This document shows positions 13,959-57,915 of a stretch of 64,000 nt of DNA, piece by piece. The notes below the pieces were generated by a model. It did not search any database. It was not told the origin of the DNA and saw only the letters and a list, made by a program, of their open reading frames with translations. Positions within the stretch are counted from its first letter, which is position 1; each line of letters opens with the position of its first letter. The stretch is taken from assembly GCF_009914755.1 (NCBI RefSeq), contig NC_060928.1; one strand, 5' to 3'. The stretch comes from the human T2T-CHM13v2.0 reference genome, Homo sapiens. The translations under genes were made by a program, and so were the position numbers.

Positions 13959-14827
13959 CTGGAATTAAAAAGAAGAGAACTTGGTTATGACAAGAAACAC
14001 TCCGCAGTTAGGTCACAGGGCTTAAGCCAGAGCCCGAGGCCTGGAGAAGCCGTGGGGCTCTCACTGTAGAGGCCGCATCCCAGGAGGAACGTGTGTGTGC
14101 ACAGGCGTGTGGGCAGCTTCCCGGCTGTGTGCGTGCTGTGGAGCTGACCCCTACATCAGAAACGGATGGAAATGACAGCCTGCAGCTGGTGGAGGCATGG
14201 GTGAGACAGGAGAGACATCCGCTGTCTGACTGCCCCTTCCCCTGCGCTCTCCAGGGAGGCACGGCCCAGGAGTGGGCTGGGAGAGGGATGGCAACACCGG
14301 TGGAAGGGGAGGGCTGGAGAGCAAGGGTGGCTTGGACGATGGTCACGGGTCATGCCAGGCTCCACGCGCTGCCCAGGCCTGGTGGTTGTAGCAGTGGGAC
14401 TCCAGCAGACGCCGCTGGAGGCAGAGAGGGCCCCCTGCCCTGAGTGCCTAGAAGCCCCTGCTGTGGCCACAGCCAACTCTCTACAGACCAACTGCCCCCA
14501 ACACTGGGTCCACGGAATCGGTAACACAGAGATCAAAACCCTCAATAACTCTGCAAGGACCCTGACAGGTTTATCCCACAATTCACTGGCAGCAGCAGCT
14601 GTGTAAGAATGGCCAAGCTGTTCTTGTGAGGGAAGGAGCAGAAGGGAGCCTCCCTCCCAGGACAGAGCAGGCCGGAGGCTGCGGGGACCAGAAAGGCTGG
14701 GCTAGGAGCAACCTCAGCTAGGCACATCGCAGAGGTGCTGTCCCCATCAGAGGAAAGCCTGGATAAAGGTCCAGAGAGATGAATGACCCAAATACACACG
14801 ACCGAACCATCGCCTGAAAGTGACCAT

Positions 14828-15100
14828 GCGTTCAAACGTTTTAAAAGCCGTCTAAACCCGCAGAGCAGGTGCTGACATAGGATGCGGGTCTTCTGTGCGT
14901 TCAAACGTTTTAAAAGCCGTCTAAACCCGCAGAGCAGGTGCTGACATAGGATGCGGGTCTTCCGTGCGTTCAAACGTTTTAAAAGCCGTCTAAACCCACC
15001 GAGCAGGTGCTGACTCAGGATGCAGGTCTTCCGTGCGTTCAAACGTTTTAAAAGGCGTCTAAACCCACCAAGCAGGTGCTGACACAGGATGCGGGTCTTC
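14828..15100. repeat. Minisatellite, 69-bp unit x4
   Basis: gcgttcaaacgttttaaaagccgtctaaaccc... at 14828, 14897, 14966 and 15035. Confidence 0.93.
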
Positions 15101-15234
15101 CAAAGCAACAAGGGAAGACGGGGAGGCACGGTGAGCCTGACGCTTGGCCACTTTTGCAGCAAGAGACAAACAGGCCACACAAAGCATGGCTACTGGACCT
15201 ATAATCTAATCACCGGTAGAAAAACAAAAATAGG

Positions 15235-15348
15235 GGCCAGGTGCGGTGGCTCATGCCTGTAATCTCAGCACTTTGGGAGGCCGAGGCAGAGAGATCACCT
15301 GAGGTTGGGAGTTTGAGACCAGCCTGACCAACATGGTGAAACCCCCAC
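15235..15348 (+). mobile_element. Alu left-arm fragment
   Basis: ggccaggtgcggtggctcatgcctgtaatc...gtgaaacccc. Confidence 0.88.
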
Positions 15349-15692
15349 TGCTCCTGTACCACGGCAGGCAGCGGCAAGCACAGCAAGCTGACACGCCTTA
15401 AGCAAAGGTGGGCATTGAGTGCCACAGGATCCACGCACATCTCACCCACCCCAGCAGCCCTGCGGGGGCCCCATGGACCTGGCTGTGTAGGCCTCAGGCA
15501 CGTGTACCACAGGTGTGTGTGTGCTAGGGCTGCACCGGATGCTGACGGGACAGAAACCAGGGCCCAGACACAGGGCTCAGGCCCCGAGGCCCTGGCTTCA
15601 GAACAGCAAGCACCAGGGCAGCCAGGGGCTCATGGCCACCCAGGTCCTGACTCCTGGGCTTGTCCGTGGGGGAGAGCCAGAAGCACAAATGA

Positions 15693-16007
<315 letters not shown>

Positions 16008-16904
16008 TGAGCCTCCAGGCCCAACCAGAACTCACTGTTGCTTCTAAGTCAACTTTACAAACACGAGGTTATGCAGCTTCATCTGCCTCAAGCACGTGAT
16101 GTGAACAGAAGGCAGAGCAAAACAAACAGCAGGGCTGCCCTCAGCTGGAACCTGGGGGTGTCAGGAGGGTTCCCACCATCCCCTAACAAGCAGCAGCTAG
16201 CTGTGCCTGAGTGCCATGCAAGCAGCGCCTGCTCAAGCCAAACTGCGTCCTCCTAGGGCCTGGAACCCATGGGTCCCAGCAGAGCCATTTCTAGAACCAG
16301 CCCCTGCGGCCTTAGGCTTCCAGCAGACAGCAGCTCCCACCATCCCCACAGCTGCTGGGGAGGGAGCGTGGCCTGGAGTCCCCCAGGGAGGACTCTGGAG
16401 CTGTGCCCGGCTCCCTGAACGCCCCACATGCCTCCTCCCTCTGCTGACTCCACTCTGCCTGTCCCCACAATGTGCTGCGGCCATGGAGACCATTTTCACT
16501 GATGCCGAAAGTGACCGTTCCTAGTGACTTTCACTTATGGCTTTGCTGCCGCATCCTCTCTGTCTTGTTTCCACTCTGATCCCAACATCACTCTCACCAA
16601 GATGACGCTGGAGAGTCTCTCACCCCCCTGGGTCCATGGCTAGCCCTGCTGACGCTCCACACGCAGTGTCACCTGTCAGGACCCTGCAGGAGCCACAGCC
16701 CTGGGCCCAGTGGGCGGTGCGCTGGCACCAGACAGACAGAGCTGCCTCTGATCTTCTGTCAGCCACAACTCAGGCAGGAGGCGTCACAGAGGAGGTGCCC
16801 AGAGGTGCGAGTGGGCTCACGTCCTGCTCTGGGGATATGCAGGCCCACTAAGAGCAGGTTTCTTTCCAAAAGGTTGCACAAGGACAAGGCACACAGGTAA
16901 TGGA

Positions 16905-17945
16905 ACCACACAGCCAAACATGCAGCACACACAGAGGCACACAGCTCACACACACAGGCACTCACACAGCACTCCTACACATGCACGCGGCCCACACGCA
17001 CTCACAGGCACACAGCTCACACACACAGGCGCTCGCACAGCACTCCTACACACGCTTACACATACACGCGGCTCACACACATGCATACACATGCACGCGG
17101 CTCAAGCGCACACACGCGTACACATGCACGCGGCTCGCGCACTCACGCGTACACATGCACGCGGCTCACGCGCACTCACGTGTACACATGCACGCGGCTC
17201 ACGCGCACTCACACGTGTACACATGCACGCGGCTCATGCTCACTCACAGGCACTCCTACGCATGCATACATGTGCACACAGCTCAGGCACAGGCACTCGC
17301 GCGCATGTGCACACATGCATGCGGCTCACATGCACTCACAGGCACTCGCACACATGCATACACATGCACGCAGCTCACGCACACAGGCACTTGTGTGCAT
17401 GCGTACACATGCATGTGGCTCACACACACTTGCATGCGTGTGTACACATGCACGCAGCTCACGCACACTCACAGGCACTCCTACTCATGCGTACACATGC
17501 ACGCGGCTCATACAGGCACTCGCGCGCATGCGTACACATGCATGCAGTTCACGTGCACTCACAGGCACTCGCACACGTGTACACATGCACACAGCTCACG
17601 CGCACTCACAAGCACTCCTACACATGCATACACATGCACACACGCATACATGCTCCAACATGCACATGTGCTCATACACGTGCCTGCACACAATACGAGC
17701 ACTCAGCTCACACAAGGATTCACAAGCACAAGGACTCACAAGCACCAGCACACATGCTCATACCAGCAATCACACACGCCTATGCACATACTCACACCAG
17801 CATTTACACACACATGCACACATGTTCACACATATGTATGTTAACACACCCATTCCCTCACATGCACACATGCTCAAAGACACATGCACCCACGCTCACA
17901 TGTGCAGACGCTGCGGTACATGCAGGCACAAGTGCACACACGTCT
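16905..17945. repeat. Degenerate (CA/CATG/CG)-rich simple repeat, ~1 kb
   Basis: cacatgcacgcggctcac... low-complexity alternating purine/pyrimidine sequence. Confidence 0.92.
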
Positions 17946-18755
17946 ACCTGGTGCTGGGGACACAAAACAGTGATCACAGCACAGAACAAAAAACATAAGA
18001 AAAAGCCCGAAGGTGTCGCCAGCTGTGGAAGGAACGTGGGCCCACCAGGGGCCGCAGTTCCTGCATCACGGGCACCAGTCCAGCCCAGCTCCTAGGCTGT
18101 TTCCTGACATAGCCGACGCCCTTGAGCTGGTGCGACCGCAGGGCCAGATGAGCAGCCAGCGTGCTCCTGGGCGTTCAGCTCCTCAGAAGAGCCAGCGCAT
18201 GGACCCCGCAACGCAGAGGGGCCGCACTCTGGAACATTCCCAGTGTTCCGTGAGCAGAGGCTGCCGGGCCTGTGGGCCGATGTCGGGGCCACCCCCGCAC
18301 AGACGCGCCCTTGGACAGCCCACCCAGAGGGAGACTTTCTCCCACCACAGGCTGGGACTCACCTGGTCTAAGTCTGAGTAACTAGGGCTTTAACTCAAGG
18401 ACTGGCTCAGTGAGGCGCCACCACCGAGGTTTCACCCAATTTACAGAGTCCCGGGAACAACCCAGGAACGCCCCAGAGTGAGGGGCGACATTGCAGCAAG
18501 GGAGGGGAGGGCCCAGGCATCTCCCCAGCAGGGCCTTGCCCCCCAGGCGATGAAAGGAAAGGGATCTGCCTGGCTCTGTGGGATGCTGGGCTCATTCCGA
18601 CTCCCTGGGAGAAGCGGGTGATGCTGTCCCACTGCCTCAGGGGCCCCTGTGGGGCCTGATGACCAGCTGTTCCACCGCAGCCAGGAAGCAAGGGCCGGGG
18701 CTGCAGCCTGGAACGAGCGTGCGGCAGGTCCAGGGCTCTGGAGCCTCACACTCAC

Positions 18756-21265: not shown

Positions 21266-22957
21266 CATGCCCAACCATATTAAGCAGACACATGGCCTGT
21301 CTGTCCCAGGATGTTCCATCATTTCAGCTCCTGGGTTCTGGGGGCCACCCTGTGAGGCTCACTACCTCCTGGGGGCAGTATTTTATTTCATTGTGAACTC
21401 AGCTCCATCATGGACTGTGTTTTCTGGGGGAGTCGGTTGGCTTAAGCAGGGGTCTAACGTCTGTCCCCACGGGGTCCCGGCCTAGAAGCACTCAGATGAG
21501 AAGCACTGAGGACCCCGCCCCATCACTAGGGGCCTGATTCTGCCCATCTGCCCAGCGGCACCTCCTCCCGCCCCATCAAGAATCCCTCCAGCGCACTCGA
21601 CAAAGCAAGAGGCCCACACCCCCCTGCGAGCCCACTGTCCTCTGTGACCTCCGGGGGAGTGGGCAGGCATTTTCTGTAAAGAGCCACCAAGCGAGGGGGA
21701 CACGAGGCCCAGGCTGCTAAAGAGCAGGACGGCCCAGGAGTGATCCCTTCCTGCCGCTCTCTGACAGCCCCAGGGAAGCTTGCTGAGAGGCCACCAGTGA
21801 CATCAACTCTCCCGCCTCAGAGCGCCCCACACCTCAAAATGCTTCCAGCACCCAGCACCAGGGCTCCCTCTGCTGGTGCACCCACCATGATGGCCGCCAG
21901 AGAGGGGCACCACAGCCTCTCCCCGTCTGCACTGGGCTTCCCAGCACTCCCCTGCTCCCAGGTCTCTGTACCCACGCGGCCCCCAAGGAACTGCAAACCC
22001 TCCACACAGCCCAAACCTTCCTTGTCCCACAGGGTCCTGTCCTCAGACAGGGACTCCAGGCAGCAGCTCTGACCTTCTCCCCACGCTCCACACCCACCGC
22101 CTGGGTCAGCTCCACTGCAGTGGCCCCTGGAAGTTCCGGCTTCCAGCTACCAGGGAGTGGAAACGACCCAAGGGCTGAAAAGGGGACAAAATGCAGGAGC
22201 CAAGAGTCCTGGGTCCTTGGACACAGACCCCTGCGAGATCTGCAGAGGGGCCCTGCGTGTCCTGACTGGGCCCTGAGCTGGGATGCCCAGGGGCCTCCCT
22301 GCTCCCCGTGGGTGAGGGCCGGGCCGCGTGTCTGCTCTGCCTCGAGGATCTGGTGATGGAGATGCTGCACCCTGTCCACGGCTGGGTCAGAAAAGACTCT
22401 GAGGAAAGCATCTTCCAGCCAACACGTGCTGCTCCCTCCCAGGCCTCACACTTCCACAAAGCACACGGCCCTGTGGGCCTCAGTCTCCCAGCCCCCAGGC
22501 CCTGATGCTGCCAGCAGCCACCGGTGCCTGGGAGTGGACCCTGGCCAGGCCCAGCCCTGACACAACTGCAACCAGGACGCCCAGAGCTGAGCTGAGGGTC
22601 AGAAACACAGACGCAGAGCAACTCAGGACACCCCAGGACGCCCAGAGCTGAGGGCTGGCTGACCTGGCTTGGACACCAGACCCCAGAAACAAAGACACAG
22701 GAGCAATTCATGCTGTCCTGTCAGGGGAAGAATCTAGAAAGGCGCCTGCAAACCTCAAGGAGGCCAGAGGAGCGCGTGCAGAGTGCGAAGACCTTGGCAA
22801 TGGTCCCAGCATGCCCCCGGGGTCTCGGCCCTGGGCTGCGGTGGTGACCCTGCTCCTGCAGGAGCCCAGGGCCCTCAAGAGCTTGTGGCTCCCCACTGAA
22901 GTGGGCAGAGACCCCCAGGGTGCAGGGTCCGGACGAAGCAGCACAGCCACATGCCAC

Positions 22958-23312
22958 CCTCCTCTCTGTGGGGGGATTTGGGGCTCACATGTGCCTCCCT
23001 CCCCTCTGTGATAGGAAACTTGGGGTTCAGGTGTGCCTCCCGCCCCTCTGTGATAGGAGACTTGGGGTTCACATGTGCCTCCCTCCCCTCTGCGGGGGAT
23101 CTGGGGCTCACGTGTGCCTCCCTCCCCTCTGTGATAGGAGACTTAGGGTTCACGTGTGCCTCCCTCCCTTCTGCAGGGGATCTGGGGCTCACATGTGCCT
23201 CCCTCCCCTCTGCGGGGGATCTGGGGCTCATGTGTGCCTCCTTCACCACTGCGGGGGATTTGGGGCTCACGTGTGCCTCCCTCACCTCTGTGATGGGAGA
23301 CTTGGGGTTCAC
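22958..23312. repeat. VNTR of 39/42-bp units x~8-9, overlapping the exon 9 3' end and donor
   Basis: tggggctcac.tgtgcctccctcccctctg.. repeated; the unit includes the exon codons for NPKSPITE. Confidence 0.93.
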
Positions 23313-23398
23313 GTTGCGGGCGGCCGCGATCTCCTGCAGCTGGTGCACCACCTCGGCGATGGACAGCCGCTCCTCCGGGTTCACCTGCAGCATGGCGC
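23286..23398 (-). CDS. GAK: GAK exon 9 (AMLQVNPEERLSIAEVV...NPKSPITE; end of kinase domain), 113 nt
   Basis: ctgcag|GCGCCATG ... ACAGAG|gtgagg. Confidence 0.96.
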
Positions 23399-23780: not shown

Positions 23781-23916
23781 GGATGAGGCTGTGGAAGACC
23801 GTGTACTGCGTGTCGTGCGGGGGGATCGAGTACTTCCCATTGACTATTCGAAGTTTCGCTCCATCCTCAAAAGGGTGCTGCCGGAAGCACAGCAGGTACA
23901 AGATGCAGCCCAGGGC
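23781..23916 (-). CDS. GAK: GAK exon 8 (ALGCILYLLCFRQHPFEDG...VFHSLI-R), 136 nt
   Basis: ccccgcag|GCCCTG ... CTCATCC|gtaagt. Confidence 0.96.
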
Positions 23917-24362
23917 CTGCGGGGAGAGCAGGGGTGATGCCTAGGCCCACGGGGAGCGCAGGGGTGACGCCTGGGCCTGCGGGGAGAGCAGGGGTGATGC
24001 CCAGGCCCACGGGGAATGCAGGGGTGACATCGGAGCCGTGGGGAGCGCAGGGGTGACACTGGGGACTGCAGGGAACACAGGGGTGATATCGGGAACATGG
24101 GAAATGCAGGGGTGACACCGGGGCCTGCGGGAACAACAGGGGTGACACCCGGGCCGCGGGGAGCGCAGGGGTGACGTTGGGGCCGTGGGGAGCGCAGGGG
24201 TGACGCCTGGGCCTGTGGGGAGTGCAGGGGTGACAACCAGGCCTGCGGGGAATGCAGGGGTGACGTCGGAGCCGTGGGGAGCGCAGGGGTGACTCCTGGG
24301 CCTGCGGGGAGTGCAGGGGTGACTCCCAGGTCTGAGGGGAGAGCAGGGGTGATGCCCGAGCC
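23908..24362. repeat. VNTR of ~30-bp units x~15, overlapping the exon 8 acceptor
   Basis: gggcctgcggggagagcaggggtga.gcc with periodicity 30 (23931, 23961, 23991, 24021...). Confidence 0.93.
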
Positions 24363-24607
24363 CAAGGGGACAAGGGCGTGAGAGGAGCACCGCAGACATG
24401 GTGACTGGCCGAGGGGTGGCTCCTTCCTTGGGGATCCTAGGGGTATAGTCGGTGGTTACACAAACATCACTTGACTGTGCGGAGCTGGCGGCGTGCTTCC
24501 CACGGCACGGGGAGGCCTGGATGCTCCACTTCTATTCACCGCAAAGAACTGTCCAGGTGACAGTGTTAAACGGACTCTAGGCTCTTAAGATTAAAAAGTT
24601 CCGTTCA

Positions 24608-27938: not shown

Positions 27939-28064
27939 CTCTTCCTCCACCAGGGCTCGCCTCTGGGCGCTCCAGCTGTAGTCAGGGTAGTGCGAGATGG
28001 TCGTGGCACTGCCAAAGTCACACAGCTTAATGGTCCCTTGGTTACTAAGCAACAAGTTCTCAAC
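27939..28064 (-). CDS. GAK: GAK exon 6 (VENLLLSNQGTIKLCDFGSATT...LVEEE; DFG motif), 126 nt
   Basis: ttacag|GTTGAG ... GAAGAG|gtgagc. Confidence 0.96.
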
Positions 28065-32540: not shown

Positions 32541-33486
32541 CTCTTCAGCAAAAGCCTCAGCACGGAGGACGAGGCCCACCATGGGCAGGCCAGGCACAGG
32601 CTTCACAGATAACGGAGAAGCCTCACAACGTCCTAGGTTTTTTAAAAAACACAACAGCAGGAGTGAAAACTGGGCCACAAACCAGAAGACGCCGGCAGCA
32701 CAGGCGACACTTAGCAGATTATGAGAATACACAAGCTGCTCCAACGAACCAAACACACAAGCCAGTGGAAAATCTTTGAAAAAGGCAAGAAACAAAAGGA
32801 AGTTTACTGAAGAGCAAGACCCGAATGACTATAACAAACATTCAACTTCATTAACATCAGGAAAAGGCAAAATCACAACCCGTCAGACTATACTCCCCAC
32901 CAGGCCAGCCAAAATCAACACAGGCAGCTCAGGGCATGGACAGCCCACGGGGCAGGAGTGTCCTCTGTGGGGCTGTGGGAAGCAGCCACATCACATGGAA
33001 ACCGCGCAGTGCCGGCAGCAGCACGGAGCGCAGGCCCAGCCCCGGCCCAGAACCACCTGTGTGGCGGTGTGGTGGGCAGGGATGGAGCGCGAGCCCAGCC
33101 CCAGTCTAGAAGCATCTGTGTGGCGGTGTGGTGGGCAGGACGGCCCTTTTACATGCAGCCAGTGGCTCATGCCCACATCACGCCAACCCCGGGATGCCAC
33201 GCCTCGGAGAAACCCGTGGTGACAGGAGAGATGGGCAGGAGAGTCTGCCGGTGAACGGAAGGGGAGGTGCAGTGGGGGGACAGTCAGGAAGTGCAAAGAG
33301 CTCCCCTCAAGCTGAGTAGGCAAGGGGTCCGGCCCCCGACCCCAGCGCCTGAGACAGGGCCAGGCAGAGGAGCGCCAGGCTTCCTCCCAGCTCCAAGAGG
33401 CCGAACCAGGGAGGCACTGTGGGGTCCAGGACTGCCCAGGGGCCAAGGAAGGGGCACTGGGTGAGCAGGAGTTGGGGGCCTGGGCC

Positions 33487-33690
33487 AACACCACTGGGGG
33501 GCTGAGGAAGGAGCGTGGGATGAGCAGGAATGCGGGGCCTGAACTGACACCACCAGGGGACTGAGGAAGGAGCGTGGGGTGAGCAGGAGTGCGGGGCCTA
33601 TAGTGACACCACCGGGGGGCGGTGGGGGGGGGCCGAGGAAGGAGTGTGGGGTGAGCAGGAATAGGGTCCTGAACTGACACCACCGGCGGG
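33487..33690. repeat. G-rich minisatellite, ~58-70-bp unit x3
   Basis: acaccacc.ggggg..gaggaaggagcgtggggtgagcagga repeated. Confidence 0.8.
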
Positions 33691-33982: not shown

Positions 33983-34490
33983 TCCTAACTGAGCGGGAGC
34001 CCCCCACAGAGGCTGTGAACCGCGTGTGGAGGGAGCCACTACCTTGTGGTCCCTGTGGATGATGGGCGGCTCCTAACCGAGTGGGACCCGCACACAGAGG
34101 CCTTGGCAGCTGCGTGTGGAGGGAGCCACTACCTTGTGGTCCCTGTGGATGATGGGCGGCTCCTAACCGAGCGGGACCCGCACACAGAGGCCTTGGCAGC
34201 CGCGTGTGGAGGGAGCCACTACCTTGAGGTCCCTGTGGATGATGGGCGGCTCCTAACCGAGCGGGACCCGCACACAGAGGCCTCAGCAGCCGCTACCTTG
34301 AGGTCCCTGTGGATGATGGGCGGCTCCTAACCGAGCGGGACCCGCACACAGAGGCCTCAGCAGCCGCTACCTTGAGGTCCCTGTGGATGATGGGCGGCTC
34401 CTAACCGAGTGGGACCCGCACACAGAGGCCTTGGCAGCCGCGTGTGGAGGGAGCCACTACCTTGAGGTCCCTGTGGATGATGGGCGGCTT
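33983..34490. repeat. VNTR of 90/74-bp units x~5.6 containing copies of the exon 5 3' end and donor
   Basis: taccttg(a/t)ggtccctgtggatgatgggcggctc with 'ac' donors at 34459, 34369, 34295, 34221, 34131 and 34041. Confidence 0.95.
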
Positions 34491-34603
34491 CTGCCGGTGC
34501 ATGTGCTGCACGGCGCGGCACGTCTGGTAGAAGATCTTCAGAACCGTGTCGCACGAAAGGGGGCCTCGAGATTCCATTTTCTTCAAAAATTCCACCAGCT
34601 GCC
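34461..34603 (-). CDS. GAK: GAK exon 5 (QLVEFLKK...PPIIHRDLK; catalytic loop), 143 nt
   Basis: ttttag|GGCAG ... CTCAAG|gtagtg; contained in ORF 34401..34913. Confidence 0.96.
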
Positions 34604-35196: not shown

Positions 35197-35234
35197 TCAT
35201 CACCGTGGAGCAATCAGTGCTCTGCCCTCCCTGG

Positions 35235-35610
35235 CCCCAGGCCACGCTACAGACTCTGCCACGCCGCGCCACGCTAGGGGCTCCGCCACGCCCCATGCCA
35301 CGCTACGGACTCCGCCACGCCCCATGCCACGCTACGGACTCCGCCACGCCCCATGCCACGCTACGGACTCCGCCACGCCCCAGGCCATGCTACGGACTTC
35401 GCCACGCCCCAGGCCACGTTACGGACTCCGCCAAACCAGGCCACGCTTCGGACTCTGCCACGCCCCAGGCCATGCCACGGACTCTGCCACGTTGGGCCAC
35501 ATTACAGACGCCACACCACACTTTGAACTCTGCCATGCCCCAGGCCATGCTACGGACTCCGCCACACCCCAGGCCACGTTACTGCAGACGCCACCACACC
35601 AGGCCACGCT
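35235..35610. repeat. Minisatellite, ~30-bp unit x~12
   Basis: gccacgctacggactccgccacgcccca repeated. Confidence 0.9.
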
Positions 35611-43623: not shown

Positions 43624-45085
43624 GCCCCAGCGTACACGCCCCCCGCAAACACAGCCCCAGCATACATGCCCCCACACACACAGCCCCAGCGTGCACGGCC
43701 CCCCCACACACACACAGCCCCAGCGTGCACGGCCCCACACACACACAGCCCCAGCGTGCACGGCCCCACACACACACAGCCCCAGCGTGCACGGCCCCCA
43801 CACACACAGCCCCAGCGTGCACGGCCCCACACACACAGCCCCAGCGTGCACGGCCCCCACACACACACAGCCCCAGCGTGCACGGCCCCACACACACAGC
43901 CCCAGCGTGCACGGCCCCACACACACAGCCCCAGCGTGCACGGCCCCCACACACACAGCCCCAGCGTGCACGGCCCCACACATACACAGCCCCAGCGTGC
44001 ACAGCCCCCACACACACAGCCCCAGCGTGCACGGCCCCCACACACACAGCCCCAGCGTGCACGGCCCCCCCCCACACACACAGCCCCAGCGTGCACGGCC
44101 ACACACACACACAGCCCCAGAGTACAAGGCCCCACACACACAGCCTCAGCGTGCCCGGCCCCACACAAACACAGCCCCAGCGTGCACGGCCCCCACACAC
44201 ACAGCCCCAGCATGCACGGCCCCACACACAGAGCCCCACACACACACAGCCCCAGCGTGCACGGCCCCCACACACACAGCCCCAGTGTGCACGGCCCCAC
44301 ACACACACAGCCCCAGCGTGCACGGCCCCACACACACACAGCCCCAGCGTGCACGGCCACACACACACAGCCCCAGCGTGCACGGCCCCCCACACACAGC
44401 CCCAGGGTGCACGGCCCCACACACATAGCCCCAGCGTACACGGCCCCCCGCACTCAGCCCTAGCGTGCACGGCCCCACACACACAGCCCCAGCGTGCACA
44501 GCCCCACCCCCAACACACAGAGCCCCAGCATACACGGCCCCCCGCACTCAGCCCCAGCGTGCAAGGCCCCACACACAGCCCCAGCATACACGGCCCCCAA
44601 CACACACAGCCCCAGTGTGCACGGCCCCATACACACACAGCCCCAACGTACACGGCCCCCAACACACATAGCTCCAGCATGCACGGCCCCACACACACAC
44701 ACAGCCCCAGCGTGCACGGCCCCACACACACACAGCCCCAGCATATACGGCCCCCAACACACACAGCCCCAGCGTACACGGCCCCACACACACACAGCTC
44801 CAGCGTACACGGCCCCCAACACACACAGCCCCAGCGCACACGGCCCCCAACACACACAGCCCCAGCGCACACGGCCAACACACACAGTCCCAGCGTGCAC
44901 GGACCCACACACACAGCCCCAGCGTACACGGCCCCCCGCACTCAGCCCCAGCGTGCACGGCCCCACACACACAGCCCCAGTATACACGGCCCCACACACA
45001 CAGCCCCAGCATACACGGCCCCGTGCACTCAGCCCCAGCGTACATGGCCCCCCGCACTCAGCCCCAGCGTGCGCAGCCCCAGTGC
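43624..45085. repeat. Large VNTR, ~31-33-bp unit x~45
   Basis: cacagccccagcgtgcacggcccc(ca)n repeated; lies ~130 nt upstream of the exon 2 acceptor. Confidence 0.96.
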
Positions 45086-46086
45086 ATACACCACTGCCTT
45101 TCACTTCCTCTACTCCAGAGACAGACAGGAATAACCTAAGAACAGAGGTCAATAGAAGGAAAAACAAAACCACAAGCAGTTCTCCAAAGACCAACGAGAC
45201 TGATAAATTCTAGACAGACTGATCCAGAGAGAGAGGACAGATCACCAATACCCAGAACAAGAGAGGGGACCTCCTTCCCCGACGCCCAAAAGAGGAAAAG
45301 ACATAAAAGAGAATACACACCAACATCACTCACGAATGTGGACCCAAGAATTCTTCATAAAACAGCAAACCAAGCCCACCAAGACATCAGGAGCAGAGTT
45401 GGTTTAACATTTGAAAATCAATTTAATTCTATTGTTTTGGGGTCTAATTTGCTTAGTTTTCTTTTAGGTTTCTGCAGTGGAAAAACTACATCATGAAATT
45501 TAAAACTCTCAGCAAACGAGGACAGAAAGAAACCTCCCCAGCCTGATAGACGGCATCTGTGAGAGACCAACAGGAACACTGCATTTCGTGGTGCAATGTC
45601 GAATCCTCCCTTCTGAGATCAGGAAGGAGGCGGGGATCCTTGTTCTCACCACTGATGGTCGACACTGTGAGGAAGTTCTCGCCGGTGCCATCAGTCAAGA
45701 AAAAGAAATAAAAGGCATCCAGATGAAAAAAGGAGTAAAATTATTTTTATCTGCAGGTGACATGATTATCTATGCAGAAAATCTGGTGAAATCTACTAAA
45801 GAAAAGCTACCATAACAAACGCATTCAGGATGGTTGTTGGATATAAGGGCAACATACAAAAACCAACTGTGCTTCCACATGCCCAAGGTTAGGCAGTGAT
45901 TTTTTAGATATAAGCACAAAAGCAGGACCCATAAAAGAAAAATAATGATAAATGGACTTCAGGAATTTCTGCTTTTTGAAAACTGGTCAGAGGATGAAAA
46001 GATAAATCACTACTAAGTTTTGCAAATCATATACCTAATAAAGGACTTCTATCGAGAAAATATTTTAAAAATCCAAGTAACAACAA

Positions 46087-55965: not shown

Positions 55966-56545
55966 GTATGTTAACAGACAGAAACCACAGAAGTAACACA
56001 GGCTTGTTCCTGCCAAGGGTCAGCCGCAGCTGAGCATGAAGTGGTGTTGGCCTGTCACTCTCCGCCCCAACAGCCTCTACTACCTTATATGCTCAGACAT
56101 CTCCTCCAGGGCACAATGCGCAGAGCAACGGGGGCCAGGACAGGGGCCCTAAGGACACCTCCCTGGGGCTCCCAGCCCCCACTCCACCACTCGACCTCTG
56201 GCAAGCAACTAATCTCTGCAAACGTCACTTTTCTCTTCTGCGAGATGGAAGTAATTATAGTACCCACTTTCCAGGGCTACTGTGAGGACCACACAATCCA
56301 CATAAAGTACTACTGACCATGCTCGGCAAATACGAAGAGCCCCTAAGGGTTGCTGTGGTGGTTCTGACCATTTTTACTTCACGCTGGGAACTAGCCAAAG
56401 TGGACAAATGTTGATGATCAAGCTGTCAACTTGGAAGTGAAGGCGGTTGGTACCAGGAGAGCCGCCAGGGGGCAGCTACTCTGTGGCAGAATCTGGGCCT
56501 CACAGGCCTGATGACCTAGAACCAACTAACCAAGCCCCAGAGACC

Positions 56546-57915
56546 CTGCTTACCTGCGCTCCGCACTGCCCCGCACCCCTCCCCGCTCACCTGCGCTCCG
56601 CACTGCCCCGCAACCCCCCCCACCCCGCTCACCTGCGCTCCGCACTGCCCCGCACCCCTCCCGGCTCACCAGCGCTCCGCACTGCCCCGCACCCCTCCCC
56701 GCTCACCTGCGCTCCGCACTGCCCCGCACCCCTCCCGGCTCACCAGCGCTCCGCACTGCCCCGCACCCCTCCCCGCTCACCTGCGCTCCGCACTGCCCCG
56801 CACCCCTCCCCGCTCACCTGCAGTCCGCACTGCCCCGCACCCCTCCCCGCTCACCTGCAGTCCGCACTGCCCCGCACCCCTCCCCGCTCACCTGCGCTCC
56901 GCACTGCCCCGCACCCCTCCCAGCTCACCTGCGCTCCGCACTGCCCCGCAACCCTCCCCGCTCACCTGCGCTCCGCACTGCCCGGCAACCCTCCCGGCTC
57001 ACCTGCGGTCCGCACTGCCCCGCACCCCTCCCGGCTCACCTGCGGTCCGCACTGCCCCGCACCCCTCCCGGCTCACCTGCGGTCCCCACTGCCTCGCACC
57101 CCTCCCCGCTCACCTGCAGTCCCCACTGCCCCGCACCCCTCCCCGCTCACCTGCAGTCCGCACTGCCCCGCACCCCTCCCGGCTCACCTGCGCTCCGCAC
57201 TGCCCCGCACCCCTCCCGGCTCACCTGCAGTCCGCACTGCCCCGCACCCCTCCCGGCTCACCTGCCCTCCGCACTGCCCCGCACCCCTCCCGGCTCACCT
57301 GCCCTCCGCACTGCCCCGCACCCCTCCCGGCTCACCTGCGCTCCGCACTGCCCCGCACCCCTCCCCGCTCACCTGCAGTCCGCACTGCCCCGCACCCCTC
57401 CCGGCTCACCTGCAGTCCGCACTGCCCCGCACCCCTCCCGGCTCACCTGCAGTCCGCACTGCCTCGCACCCCTCCCCGCTCACCTGCAGTCCGCACTGCC
57501 CCGCACCCCTCCCGGCTCACCTGCAGTCCGCACCCCTCCCCGCTCACCTGCAGTCCGCACTGCCCCGCACCCCTCCCGGCTCACCTGCAGTCCGCACTGC
57601 CCCGCACCCCTCCCGGCTCACCTGCGGTCCGCACTGCCCCGCACCCCTCCCGGCTCACCTGCAGTCCGCACTGCCCCGCACCCCTCCCCGCTCACCTGTA
57701 GTCCGCACTGCCCCGCACCCCTCCCCGCTCACCTGCCCTCCGCACTGCCCCGCACCCCTCCCTGCTTACCTGCGCTCTGCACTGCCCCGCACCCCTCCCT
57801 GCTTACCTGCGCTCTGCACTGCCCCGCACCCCTCCCTGCTTACCTGCGCTCTGCACTGCCCCGCACCCCTCCCTGGGTGAGCGCAGGCCCCGCACCCCTC
57901 CCTGGGTGAGCGCAG
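56546..57915. repeat. Large VNTR, 37-bp unit x~36, C-rich on + and G-rich on the GAK sense strand
   Basis: ctcacctgcgctccgcactgccccgcacccctccccg repeated. Confidence 0.96.

What the first reader, a model, noticed from the sequence alone, without database searches (positions are those of the whole stretch)
34041..34461. VNTR made of AG/GT-flanked, in-frame 30-nt copies of the GAK kinase catalytic loop
Seen: on the GAK strand each intron 5 repeat unit reads ...ctcggttag|GAG CCG CCC ATC ATC CAC AGG GAC C(T/A)C AAG|gtag(t/c)g. That is a 30-nt cassette encoding EPPIIHRDLK (three copies) or EPPIIHRDHK (two copies), at 34371-34400, 34297-34326, 34223-34252, 34133-34162 and 34043-34072. Every copy keeps the exon 5 donor, and exon 5 ends in phase 0. 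Inference: inclusion as a micro-exon would duplicate the HRD loop in frame. Using a distal donor as an exon extension instead hits an in-frame TAG at 34403-34401, giving a PTC/NMD product. Copy number could therefore tune the amount of active kinase. Caveats: the polypyrimidine tract is poor, and the first cassette is only 60 nt from the real donor.
Basis: partly seen in the sequence, partly recalled or inferred. Interest (0 to 1): 0.8.

Follow-up and report, generated by a model that had tools for sequence, protein, structure and literature searches.

The report
Tandem copies of GAK exon-5 splice donor
The last 29 bases of GAK exon 5 and the first 60 bases of its intron have been copied five more times in tandem; this is an ordinary minisatellite of a kind already described at ABCA7 and CBS, and its effect on GAK splicing is plausible but untested.

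Summary
On the GAK strand, the last 29 nt of exon 5 (the HRD catalytic loop) plus its donor recur five more times. The units are 90 or 74 nt long and 93-100% alike. Each copy keeps an AG in front, a GT behind and a 30-nt in-frame cassette. Any exon extension meets a TAG after 19 codons.

These properties follow from where the duplication broke and from how recent the array is. Cassettes vary as much as the intronic parts (2 of 30 against 4 of 44 variable columns), and both cassette changes alter the amino acid. The cassette "acceptors" are no better than a median AG, and the gaps between cassettes are 44-60 nt, so micro-exon use is unlikely.

Distal-donor use leading to a premature stop remains plausible. 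The real donor is weak and the copies share its core. One RefSeq model has an exon ending at a distal donor, but that exon can be placed at two positions in the array and does not begin behind an AG.

Two published junction-spanning repeats are close precedents: ABCA7 intron 18 and the CBS 31-bp VNTR. At ABCA7, unit retention was about 2% of transcripts and did not depend on repeat length.

Copy-number variation could not be tested. No paper on this GAK array was found. Verdict: real, a new member of a known kind, moderate interest.

The parts
34461..34603 (-). GAK exon 5 (143 nt). It ends in phase 0 with ...KPPIIHRDLK. Its last 29 nt are the first part of repeat unit U0.
   Evidence: Hub annotation. 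The translation matches Pfam Pkinase positions 86-125 (E 2.4e-06, 27.6 bits, below the 31.7-bit cut-off because it is a fragment).
34401..34490 (-). Unit U0 (90 nt): the exon end, the authentic donor AAG|GTAGTG at 34461/34460, and the first 60 nt of intron 5.
34401..34403 (-). In-frame TAG, met at codon 20 of any extension of exon 5.
34327..34400 (-). Unit U1 (74 nt): cassette EPPIIHRDLK (34371-34400), donor copy AAG|GTAGCG, and an intronic part shortened by 16 nt with two substitutions (CCAAGG to CTGAGG).
34253..34326 (-). Unit U2 (74 nt), identical to U1 (74 of 74): cassette 34297-34326, donor copy GTAGCG.
34163..34252 (-). Unit U3 (90 nt): cassette EPPIIHRDLK (34223-34252), donor copy GTAGTG.
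34073..34162 (-). Unit U4 (90 nt): cassette EPPIIHRDHK (34133-34162; CTC to CAC), donor copy GTAGTG.
33983..34072 (-). Terminal unit U5: cassette EPPIIHRDHK (34043-34072) and donor copy, then a diverged intronic part (86-91% identity to the other units). This is the edge of the array, continuing into unique intron.
34223..34282 (-). Exon of another RefSeq transcript (60 nt). Its 3' end is the U3 donor copy. Its 5' end follows CTGA, not AG, so it is a first or 5'-partial exon. The same 60-mer also occurs at 34297-34356.
   Evidence: Hub annotation.
27939..28064 (-). GAK exon 6. It begins VENLLL and completes the catalytic loop (HRDLK|VEN). Its acceptor would be shared by all six donors.
   Evidence: Hub annotation.

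Best explanation
This is a minisatellite that arose by tandem duplication of a roughly 90-nt segment. That segment happened to span the exon 5/intron 5 junction of GAK, in a subtelomeric region dense with such arrays.

The AG in front of each cassette is the intron's own ...GTTAG|G at the duplication breakpoint. The GT behind it is the copied donor. The 30-nt in-frame length follows from where the breakpoints fell.

The spliceosome uses the first donor (34461), the one paired across a 143-nt exon with the good exon 5 acceptor. The five copies are pseudo-donors.

At most a small fraction of transcripts (inferred: a few per cent, as measured at ABCA7) is spliced at a distal copy. Such transcripts carry a stop 19 codons past K175 and should be removed by nonsense-mediated decay. 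No protein with a doubled HRD loop is made.

Shown here: the anatomy, the frames, the stop, and the lack of extra conservation of the cassettes. Inferred: which donor is used and how often.
For: (1) Array anatomy.
- There are six exact copies of the junction pattern, against 0 matches in 100 shuffles.
- Units are 93-100% alike and U1 = U2 (74 of 74). The last unit is diverged, as expected at an array edge.

(2) The region makes such arrays freely.
- 27 arrays cover 14.6% of the window.
- If the 37 GAK junctions were placed uniformly, 5.5 would fall inside arrays. Two do, plus this one.
- A second array also spans a GAK exon end, at exon 23286-23398.

(3) No selection on the cassettes. Variable columns are 2 of 30 against 4 of 44 in the intronic part (p = 1.0). 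Both cassette changes are non-synonymous.

(4) No real acceptor signal. 41% of 4584 AGs have as many pyrimidines, no yUnAy motif is present, and the gaps are 44-60 nt.

(5) The selected RefSeq transcript uses 34461 (hub annotation). The extensions would make exons of 233, 307, 381, 471 and 561 nt, between introns of 6.4 kb and, from the hub exon coordinates, about 6.9 kb. From recalled work on exon definition (Berget; Sterner et al.), internal exons longer than about 300 nt are poorly recognised in that setting.

(6) Precedent at ABCA7. A repeat that includes the exon 18 donor gave single-unit retention in 2 +/- 1% of transcripts, unaffected by repeat length (PMC5954066, passages).
Against: - The six donor 9-mers are the same apart from +5 T/C in two copies, so the core site does not favour the first one.
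- The real donor is weak. It ranks 4th weakest of the 19 annotated GAK donors in the window on a position matrix recalled from memory, and 9.4% of 4407 random GTs score as well. Competition from the copies is therefore conceivable.
- Decay of the mis-spliced RNA would hide distal use from steady-state annotation.
- One RefSeq model has an exon that ends exactly at a distal donor (hub annotation).
- No RNA data, no population data and no other primate genome could be examined here.
Confidence: 0.6

Rival explanations
1. Distal donor copies are used often enough to matter. Exon 5 is extended into the array, reads into the TAG, and the RNA is degraded. More copies then mean less productive GAK mRNA: a dosage rheostat at a Parkinson's disease GWAS locus.
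For: - All 5 extensions meet the TAG at codon 20, upstream of many exon junctions.
- The donor cores are identical and the real donor is weak.
- The first two extensions would give exons of 233 and 307 nt, still near the usual size.
- The RefSeq exon 34223-34282 ends at a distal donor.
- Unit retention through a copied donor was seen at ABCA7.
Against: - At ABCA7 the retention isoform was 2 +/- 1% of transcripts and independent of repeat length.
- The RefSeq exon can be placed at two positions, and normal exon 5-exon 6 reads with anchors of 29 nt or less map equally well to three distal donors. The annotation may therefore rest on mis-placed reads.
- GAK did not occur in the supplementary files that could be searched for two VNTR-expression studies, one tandem-repeat-splicing study and one study associating structural variants with human traits. 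Those methods may not cover 74-90-nt units, and one file in each of two of the studies could not be searched.
- Copy-number variation is not shown.
Confidence: 0.2
2. A cassette is spliced in as a 30-nt micro-exon, giving a GAK protein with a duplicated catalytic-loop segment (EPPIIHRDLK or EPPIIHRDHK inserted between K175 and V176).
For: Each cassette is flanked by AG and GT, is 30 nt long and is in frame.
Against: - The acceptor context is that of a median AG: 10 of 18 pyrimidines, 4 of 18 T, no yUnAy.
- The first cassette is 60 nt from the real donor and the others are 44-60 nt apart.
- Cassettes are no more conserved than the intronic parts. 2 of 5 carry L>H in the HRDLK motif.
- The only annotated exon in the array does not start at a cassette acceptor.
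Confidence: 0.03
3. The array acts through the dose of motifs it carries rather than through its donor copies. The intronic array holds 14 GGG and 5 UGUGUG. Array length would change how exon 5 or exon 6 is recognised, or change transcription or chromatin, as proposed for exon 19 skipping at ABCA7.
For: - Motif counts.
- At ABCA7, skipping of the downstream exon rose with repeat length (p = 3.24e-13) while donor-copy use did not.
- Intronic repeats at CUL4A are reported to alter splicing (secondary citations).
Against: - The array is short (about 0.5 kb, 5 extra units), against the kilobase-scale expansions at ABCA7.
- No binding or expression data were available.
- The one TDP-43-dependent GAK cryptic event found in print lies in another intron.
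Confidence: 0.1
4. The array holds an internal transcription start. The RefSeq exon 34223-34282 would be a true first exon, giving an N-terminally truncated GAK without the kinase N-lobe.
For: The exon is not preceded by AG, like other alternative first exons in the gene table. The region is GC-rich, 61-66%.
Against: - The 60-nt exon holds no ATG.
- The start follows a purine, not the usual pyrimidine-purine step (that rule is recalled).
- No RefSeq functional element is listed here (hub annotation).
- The start may simply be a truncated 5' end of an extended-exon transcript.
Confidence: 0.05

Closest known systems
ABCA7 intron 18 VNTR (De Roeck et al. 2018, PMC5954066; abstract and passages read)
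   Same: - The tandem repeat directly flanks an exon and includes its splice donor.
- Every unit begins with a GT copy.
- Use of the copied donor retains one unit and gives a premature stop and decay.
- It lies at a GWAS locus for a neurodegenerative disease.
   Different: - The ABCA7 unit is 25 bp, purely intronic, with 12 to several hundred copies. The GAK unit is 74-90 nt, includes 29 nt of coding exon, and has 5 extra copies.
- At ABCA7 the length-dependent effect was skipping of the next exon, not donor-copy use.
- Nothing has been measured for GAK.
CBS 31-bp VNTR c.1444_1467+7(16_21) (named and genotyped in PMC2630376, passages read; Lievers et al. 2001 not held)
   Same: By its name, the repeat unit spans the last 24 nt of an exon and the first 7 nt of the intron. 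Exon end and donor are therefore repeated in tandem. It is polymorphic (16-21 copies) in healthy people.
   Different: - The CBS unit is shorter and has many more copies.
- That it lowers enzyme activity and shows alternative splicing is my recollection of Lievers et al. 2001 and was not checked here.
- The GAK cassette is in frame (30 nt) and the CBS unit is not (31 nt).
CBS c.844_845ins68 (PMC2630376, passage read)
   Same: An exon-intron junction is duplicated, giving two copies of a splice site close together. The machinery strongly favours one, and normal mRNA results.
   Different: [quoted passage not shown] 2002 in the reference list), not a multi-copy array on the donor side.
CUL4A intronic VNTR (Mukamel et al. 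2023; seen only through passages in PMC11701250 and PMC12776774; the original is not held)
   Same: Intronic repeat length alters splicing of the host gene and lowers its expression.
   Different: I could not check whether its units carry splice-site copies. It is associated with red-cell traits. No comparable data exist for GAK.
Alternative splicing coupled to nonsense-mediated decay ('poison' exons or extensions; recalled general knowledge)
   Same: An alternative 5' splice site adds sequence with an in-frame stop, well upstream of the last exon junction.
   Different: Classical poison exons are conserved and regulated. This one is a by-product of a recent duplication, with no evidence of regulation.

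Membership tests
Minisatellite / VNTR | Head-to-tail tandem copies of a 10-100-nt unit | tested here: met
   TRF finds periods of 90 and 74 nt, scores 524 and 428. Six aligned units, mean column identity 89%.
Minisatellite / VNTR | Copy number varies between individuals | not testable with these tools
   Only one assembly is held and it has no relatives. There were 0 matches in viral contigs and genome contigs. Identical neighbours U1 = U2 suggest recent duplication but do not show polymorphism.
Junction-spanning splice-donor repeat (ABCA7 / CBS type) | The array includes the authentic exon-intron junction | tested here: met
   The copies are identical to the real exon end for 29 nt upstream of the junction and continue into the intron.
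Junction-spanning splice-donor repeat (ABCA7 / CBS type) | Repeat units keep a GT donor copy | tested here: met
   5 of 5 copies read AAG|GTAG(T/C)G.
Junction-spanning splice-donor repeat (ABCA7 / CBS type) | A copied donor is used in RNA | tested here: inconclusive
   The RefSeq exon 34223-34282 ends at a copied donor (hub annotation). Its placement is ambiguous (34297-34356 is identical) and short-anchor reads can be mis-placed. No RNA data are held.
Junction-spanning splice-donor repeat (ABCA7 / CBS type) | Repeat length is associated with splicing or expression | not testable with these tools
   GAK did not occur in the searchable supplements of four studies. One file in each of two of them could not be searched.
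Functional micro-exon | Acceptor with a polypyrimidine tract and branch point | tested here: not met
   10 of 18 pyrimidines and 4 of 18 T. 41% of 4584 AGs are as good or better. No yUnAy within 50 nt. This is a crude proxy, not MaxEntScan or SpliceAI.
Functional micro-exon | Flanking introns long enough to splice | tested here: inconclusive
   Cassette-to-cassette gaps are 44-60 nt, and the gap from the real donor to the first cassette is 60 nt. From the real donor to later cassettes the distance is 134-388 nt. The minimum human intron length (about 65-70 nt) is recalled.
Functional micro-exon | Coding constraint on the cassette | tested here: not met
   Variable columns are 2 of 30 against 4 of 44 (p = 1.0). 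Both changes are non-synonymous, and 2 of 5 cassettes have HRDHK.
Splicing coupled to nonsense-mediated decay | The alternative splice form carries a premature stop upstream of later exon junctions | tested here: met
   TAG at codon 20 in 5 of 5 extensions. 14 further annotated exons follow within the window (hub annotation).
Splicing coupled to nonsense-mediated decay | The isoform exists and rises when decay is blocked | not testable with these tools
   The one decay-inhibition data set seen lists only a TDP-43-dependent GAK event in another intron.

The most novel reading that the evidence does not exclude
The number and type of units in this array (74 against 90 nt, L against H, GTAGTG against GTAGCG) differ between human haplotypes. 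They set how much GAK pre-mRNA is lost to distal-donor splicing and decay, and this contributes to the GAK/TMEM175 association signal for Parkinson's disease, which colocalises with ALS. It would be a coding-exon-derived counterpart of the ABCA7 repeat.
Probability: 0.07. Interest if true: 0.7.

Novelty: new member of a known kind. Interest (0 to 1): 0.35.

Why it matters
GAK sits in a replicated Parkinson's disease risk locus, and colocalisation analysis points to a causal variant shared between ALS and PD there (PMC8648564, passages).

A repeat that multiplies the donor of a kinase-domain exon is a concrete, cheaply testable candidate for a hidden functional variant. Short-read pipelines would miss it, and could even mis-map it.

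There is also a practical point. Ordinary exon 5-exon 6 junction reads with anchors of 29 nt or less align equally well to three distal donor copies. Junction counts and gene models in this intron need long anchors or long reads.

If the array turns out to be inert, it is one more example, after CBS 844ins68, of how robustly the spliceosome ignores duplicated splice sites.

Tried and rejected
- **RNA structure hiding the distal donors.** Folding the 661-nt region gave z = -1.57 (2 of 20 shuffles fold as well). Four single units gave z = -0.97 to -2.05. This is not distinguishable from composition, so I dropped it.
- **TDP-43-repressed cryptic splicing at the array's UGUGUG motifs.** The only GAK cryptic event found (PMC12262666, supplementary table) maps to the intron at window 13959-18755, with its acceptor at 17954/17953. 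It is not in this array.
- **Copies elsewhere, such as a pseudogene or paralogue.** The unit matches only this locus in the window's own genome (5 of 5 matches at C4:902034-902492).
- **Other haplotypes through stray human DNA in public collections.** 0 matches in viral contigs and 0 in genome contigs.
- **Literature on a GAK repeat.** Six of the ten searches included GAK and none returned a paper on this array. The word 'splice' was matched as a whole word and would have missed 'splicing'; one search repeated the search with 'splic'.
- **Supplementary files.** GAK had 0 occurrences in the searchable supplements of PMC11701250, PMC8024321, PMC13263140 and PMC10078293. One file of PMC8024321 and one of PMC10078293 could not be searched.
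- **Papers not read.** Mukamel et al. 2023 is not held, and I did not look up Lievers et al. 2001. What I say of these two papers is second-hand or recalled.
- **Splice scoring.** MaxEntScan and SpliceAI are not available. The donor matrix and the U1 pairing use recalled values and are rough proxies.
- **Structure of the 10-residue insertion.** No structure prediction was run, because it would need a joined sequence.

Full report
**What is there.** Read on the GAK (minus) strand, exon 5 (34461-34603) ends ...CAG AAG CCG CCC ATC ATC CAC AGG GAC CTC AAG and is followed by GTAGTG. A 33-nt pattern covering this exon end and donor matches exactly at six places: the real junction and five more in the first 420 nt of intron 5. 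None of 100 dinucleotide-preserving shuffles of the window gave a single match. Tandem Repeats Finder reports periods of 90 nt (score 524) and 74 nt (score 428).

Aligned, the array has six units:
- U0: the exon end plus 60 nt of intron.
- U1 and U2: 74 nt each and identical to each other (74 of 74). A 16-nt deletion just behind GTAG turns the donor into GTAGCG, and there are two substitutions.
- U3 and U4: 90 nt each.
- U5: its first 53 nt match U4, and the rest is a diverged edge (86-91% identity to the other units).

The copies are identical to the true exon end for 29 nt, so the repeat begins inside the exon. The unit occurs nowhere else in the window's own genome.

- The coding sequence through exon 5 is 525 nt, so the exon ends in phase 0 with ...KPPIIHRDLK. 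Exon 6 starts VENLLL.
- The exon 5 and exon 6 translations match adjacent parts of Pfam Pkinase: positions 86-125 and 127-152, both below the gathering score because they are fragments. The junction therefore splits the catalytic loop.
- The five cassettes are 30 nt long and in frame.
- Every extension of exon 5 to a distal donor (adding 90, 164, 238, 328 or 418 nt) meets TAG at 34403-34401 as its 20th codon.

**Why the cassettes look like exons.** The AG in front of each cassette is the intron's own ...GTTAG|G. The unduplicated edge of the array still reads ...AGTTAGGATGCAGG. The GT behind each cassette is the copied donor. Both are consequences of where the duplicated segment began and ended.

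All five copies keep AG, GT and the open frame because the units are so alike. Among U0-U4, 2 of 30 cassette columns vary against 4 of 44 ungapped intronic columns (Fisher p = 1.0). Both cassette changes alter the amino acid in the proposed frame (K>E at the breakpoint, L>H in the HRDLK motif). Nothing indicates selection on the cassettes.

**Is the location surprising?** No. The window holds 27 separate tandem arrays (TRF score 100 or more) covering 14.6% of it. If the 37 annotated GAK junctions were placed uniformly, 5.5 would fall inside arrays. Two do, plus this one, whose TRF boundary stops 20 nt short.

One of the two is a second junction-spanning array, at the donor of exon 23286-23398. 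There the exon end ...GTGAACCCCAAGTCTCCCATCACAGAG|GTGAGG recurs downstream. In all three exon-like copies the GT reads GG. Duplicating an exon end is thus a regional habit. In the older, more diverged array behind a strong donor (matrix score 10.3) the copies lack GT. In the young array behind a weak donor (4.68) they keep it.

**Splice-site quality (rough proxies only).** On a donor matrix recalled from memory, AAG|GTAGTG scores 4.68. That is the fourth weakest of the 19 annotated GAK donors in the window, and 9.4% of the 4407 minus-strand GTs do as well. Predicted pairing to the U1 5' end is -7.0 kcal/mol for GTAGTG and -6.2 for GTAGCG. The core site therefore does not distinguish the real donor from its copies, and all of them are weak.

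The cassette acceptors have 10 of 18 pyrimidines and 4 of 18 T. 41% of the 4584 minus-strand AGs are as good or better, and there is no yUnAy motif in the 50 nt upstream. They tie with the four poorest of the 18 real acceptors. The gaps between a donor copy and the next cassette are 60, 44, 44, 60 and 60 nt, at or under the smallest workable human introns (recalled). Micro-exon inclusion is therefore unlikely.

**Which donor is used.** The selected RefSeq transcript uses 34461 (hub annotation). The most likely reason, inferred from recalled exon-definition work, is that the first donor closes a 143-nt exon behind a good acceptor (13 of 18 pyrimidines). The alternatives would make exons of 233 to 561 nt between introns of 6.4 and about 6.9 kb (the upstream intron length is from the hub exon coordinates).

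Distal use would be hidden by decay, so it cannot be excluded. The gene table lists an exon of another transcript at 34223-34282 whose 3' end is the U3 donor copy. Three caveats apply:
- It is not preceded by AG, so it is a first or 5'-partial exon.
- It holds no ATG, and in frame 0 it reads into the same TAG.
- The identical 60-mer, with 53 more identical bases upstream, also lies at 34297-34356.

In addition, ordinary exon 5-exon 6 reads with 29 nt or less on the exon 5 side fit three distal donors equally well. The model is a hint, not proof.

**Precedents.**
[quoted passage not shown] A cryptic donor one unit in gives a 25-bp retention and a premature stop. That isoform was 2 +/- 1% of transcripts and was not affected by repeat length, while skipping of the next exon rose with length (p = 3.24e-13) (PMC5954066, abstract and passages).
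- *CBS 31-bp VNTR.* It is written c.1444_1467+7(16_21), so its unit spans an exon end and 7 nt of intron. It has 16-21 copies in controls (PMC2630376, passages).
[quoted passage not shown] One of the two sites is strongly favoured and the mRNA is normal (same paper).
- *CUL4A.* An intronic VNTR there is cited as altering splicing; the original paper is not held.

The GAK array is therefore a new member of a known kind. Its special feature is that the repeated exon part is the kinase HRD loop and is exactly in frame.

**Not found in print.** Six of the ten full-text searches included GAK, and none gave a paper on this array. GAK is absent from the searchable supplements of four repeat or structural-variant studies (one file in each of two could not be searched). 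The GAK cryptic exon extension unmasked by TDP-43 loss plus a block of nonsense-mediated decay (PMC12262666) lies in another intron; I mapped its acceptor to window 17954/17953.

**What stays open.** Three things could not be tested: whether copy number varies between people, how much distal donor use occurs, and how old the array is. There is one assembly, no RNA data and no primate genome, and stray human DNA was not found in two public collections. RNA folding gave no significant structure (z = -0.97 to -2.05).

**Verdict.**
- The micro-exon reading is rejected as unlikely.
- The premature-stop reading is plausible but, by the ABCA7 precedent, probably a minor and copy-number-independent leak.

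My odds: an inert or nearly inert by-product 0.6; meaningful distal-donor loss 0.2; motif-dose effects 0.1; an internal transcription start 0.05; a micro-exon protein 0.03.

Noticed in passing
window 22952-23312 (minus strand; exon 23286-23398): A second tandem array spans a GAK exon-intron junction. The last 27 nt or so of exon 23286-23398 and its donor region recur downstream, with periods of about 39 and 81 nt. In all 3 exon-like copies (ending 23127, 23046 and 23004) the donor GT reads GG. Either the copies lost the donor, or the exon end was recruited from the repeat.
   Followed up: partly
window 17953-17955 and 16928-17642: The GAK exon extension that appears after TDP-43 loss plus a block of nonsense-mediated decay (PMC12262666, Table 1, hg38 chr4:888045-888846) maps to an AG at 17955-17954 behind a good pyrimidine tract. 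On the GAK strand, UG-rich sequence follows at once and a UG-rich minisatellite complex lies about 300 nt further on. Taking the published coordinates at face value, the host intron is 37 nt longer here than in hg38, which suggests a repeat-length difference between assemblies.
   Followed up: partly
whole window: Minisatellite density is very high. 27 arrays with TRF score 100 or more cover 14.6% of 64 kb, including a 29-mer of about 49 copies (43624-45082, overlapping the RefSeq silencer 44951-45130) and a 37-mer of about 36 copies (56544-57873) in intron 1.
   Followed up: no
window 23913-24370: A 30-nt-period array (15 copies) starts 4 nt inside the acceptor end of exon 23781-23916, so it abuts that exon's 3' splice site region.
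   Followed up: no
window 34282-34290 and 34356-34364: The two substitutions that mark the 74-nt units (CCAAGG to CTGAGG) create an AG at 34283-34282 and at 34357-34356. In the predicted fold they pair with the CCUCA just before the donor copy. The RefSeq alternative exon starts on the G of that AG (34282).
   Followed up: partly
window 33025-33139, 33439-33620, 35234-35491: Three further minisatellites (59-, 59- and 29-nt units) lie within 1.5 kb of the exon 5 array, in the same GC-rich stretch of 59-68% GC.
   Followed up: no
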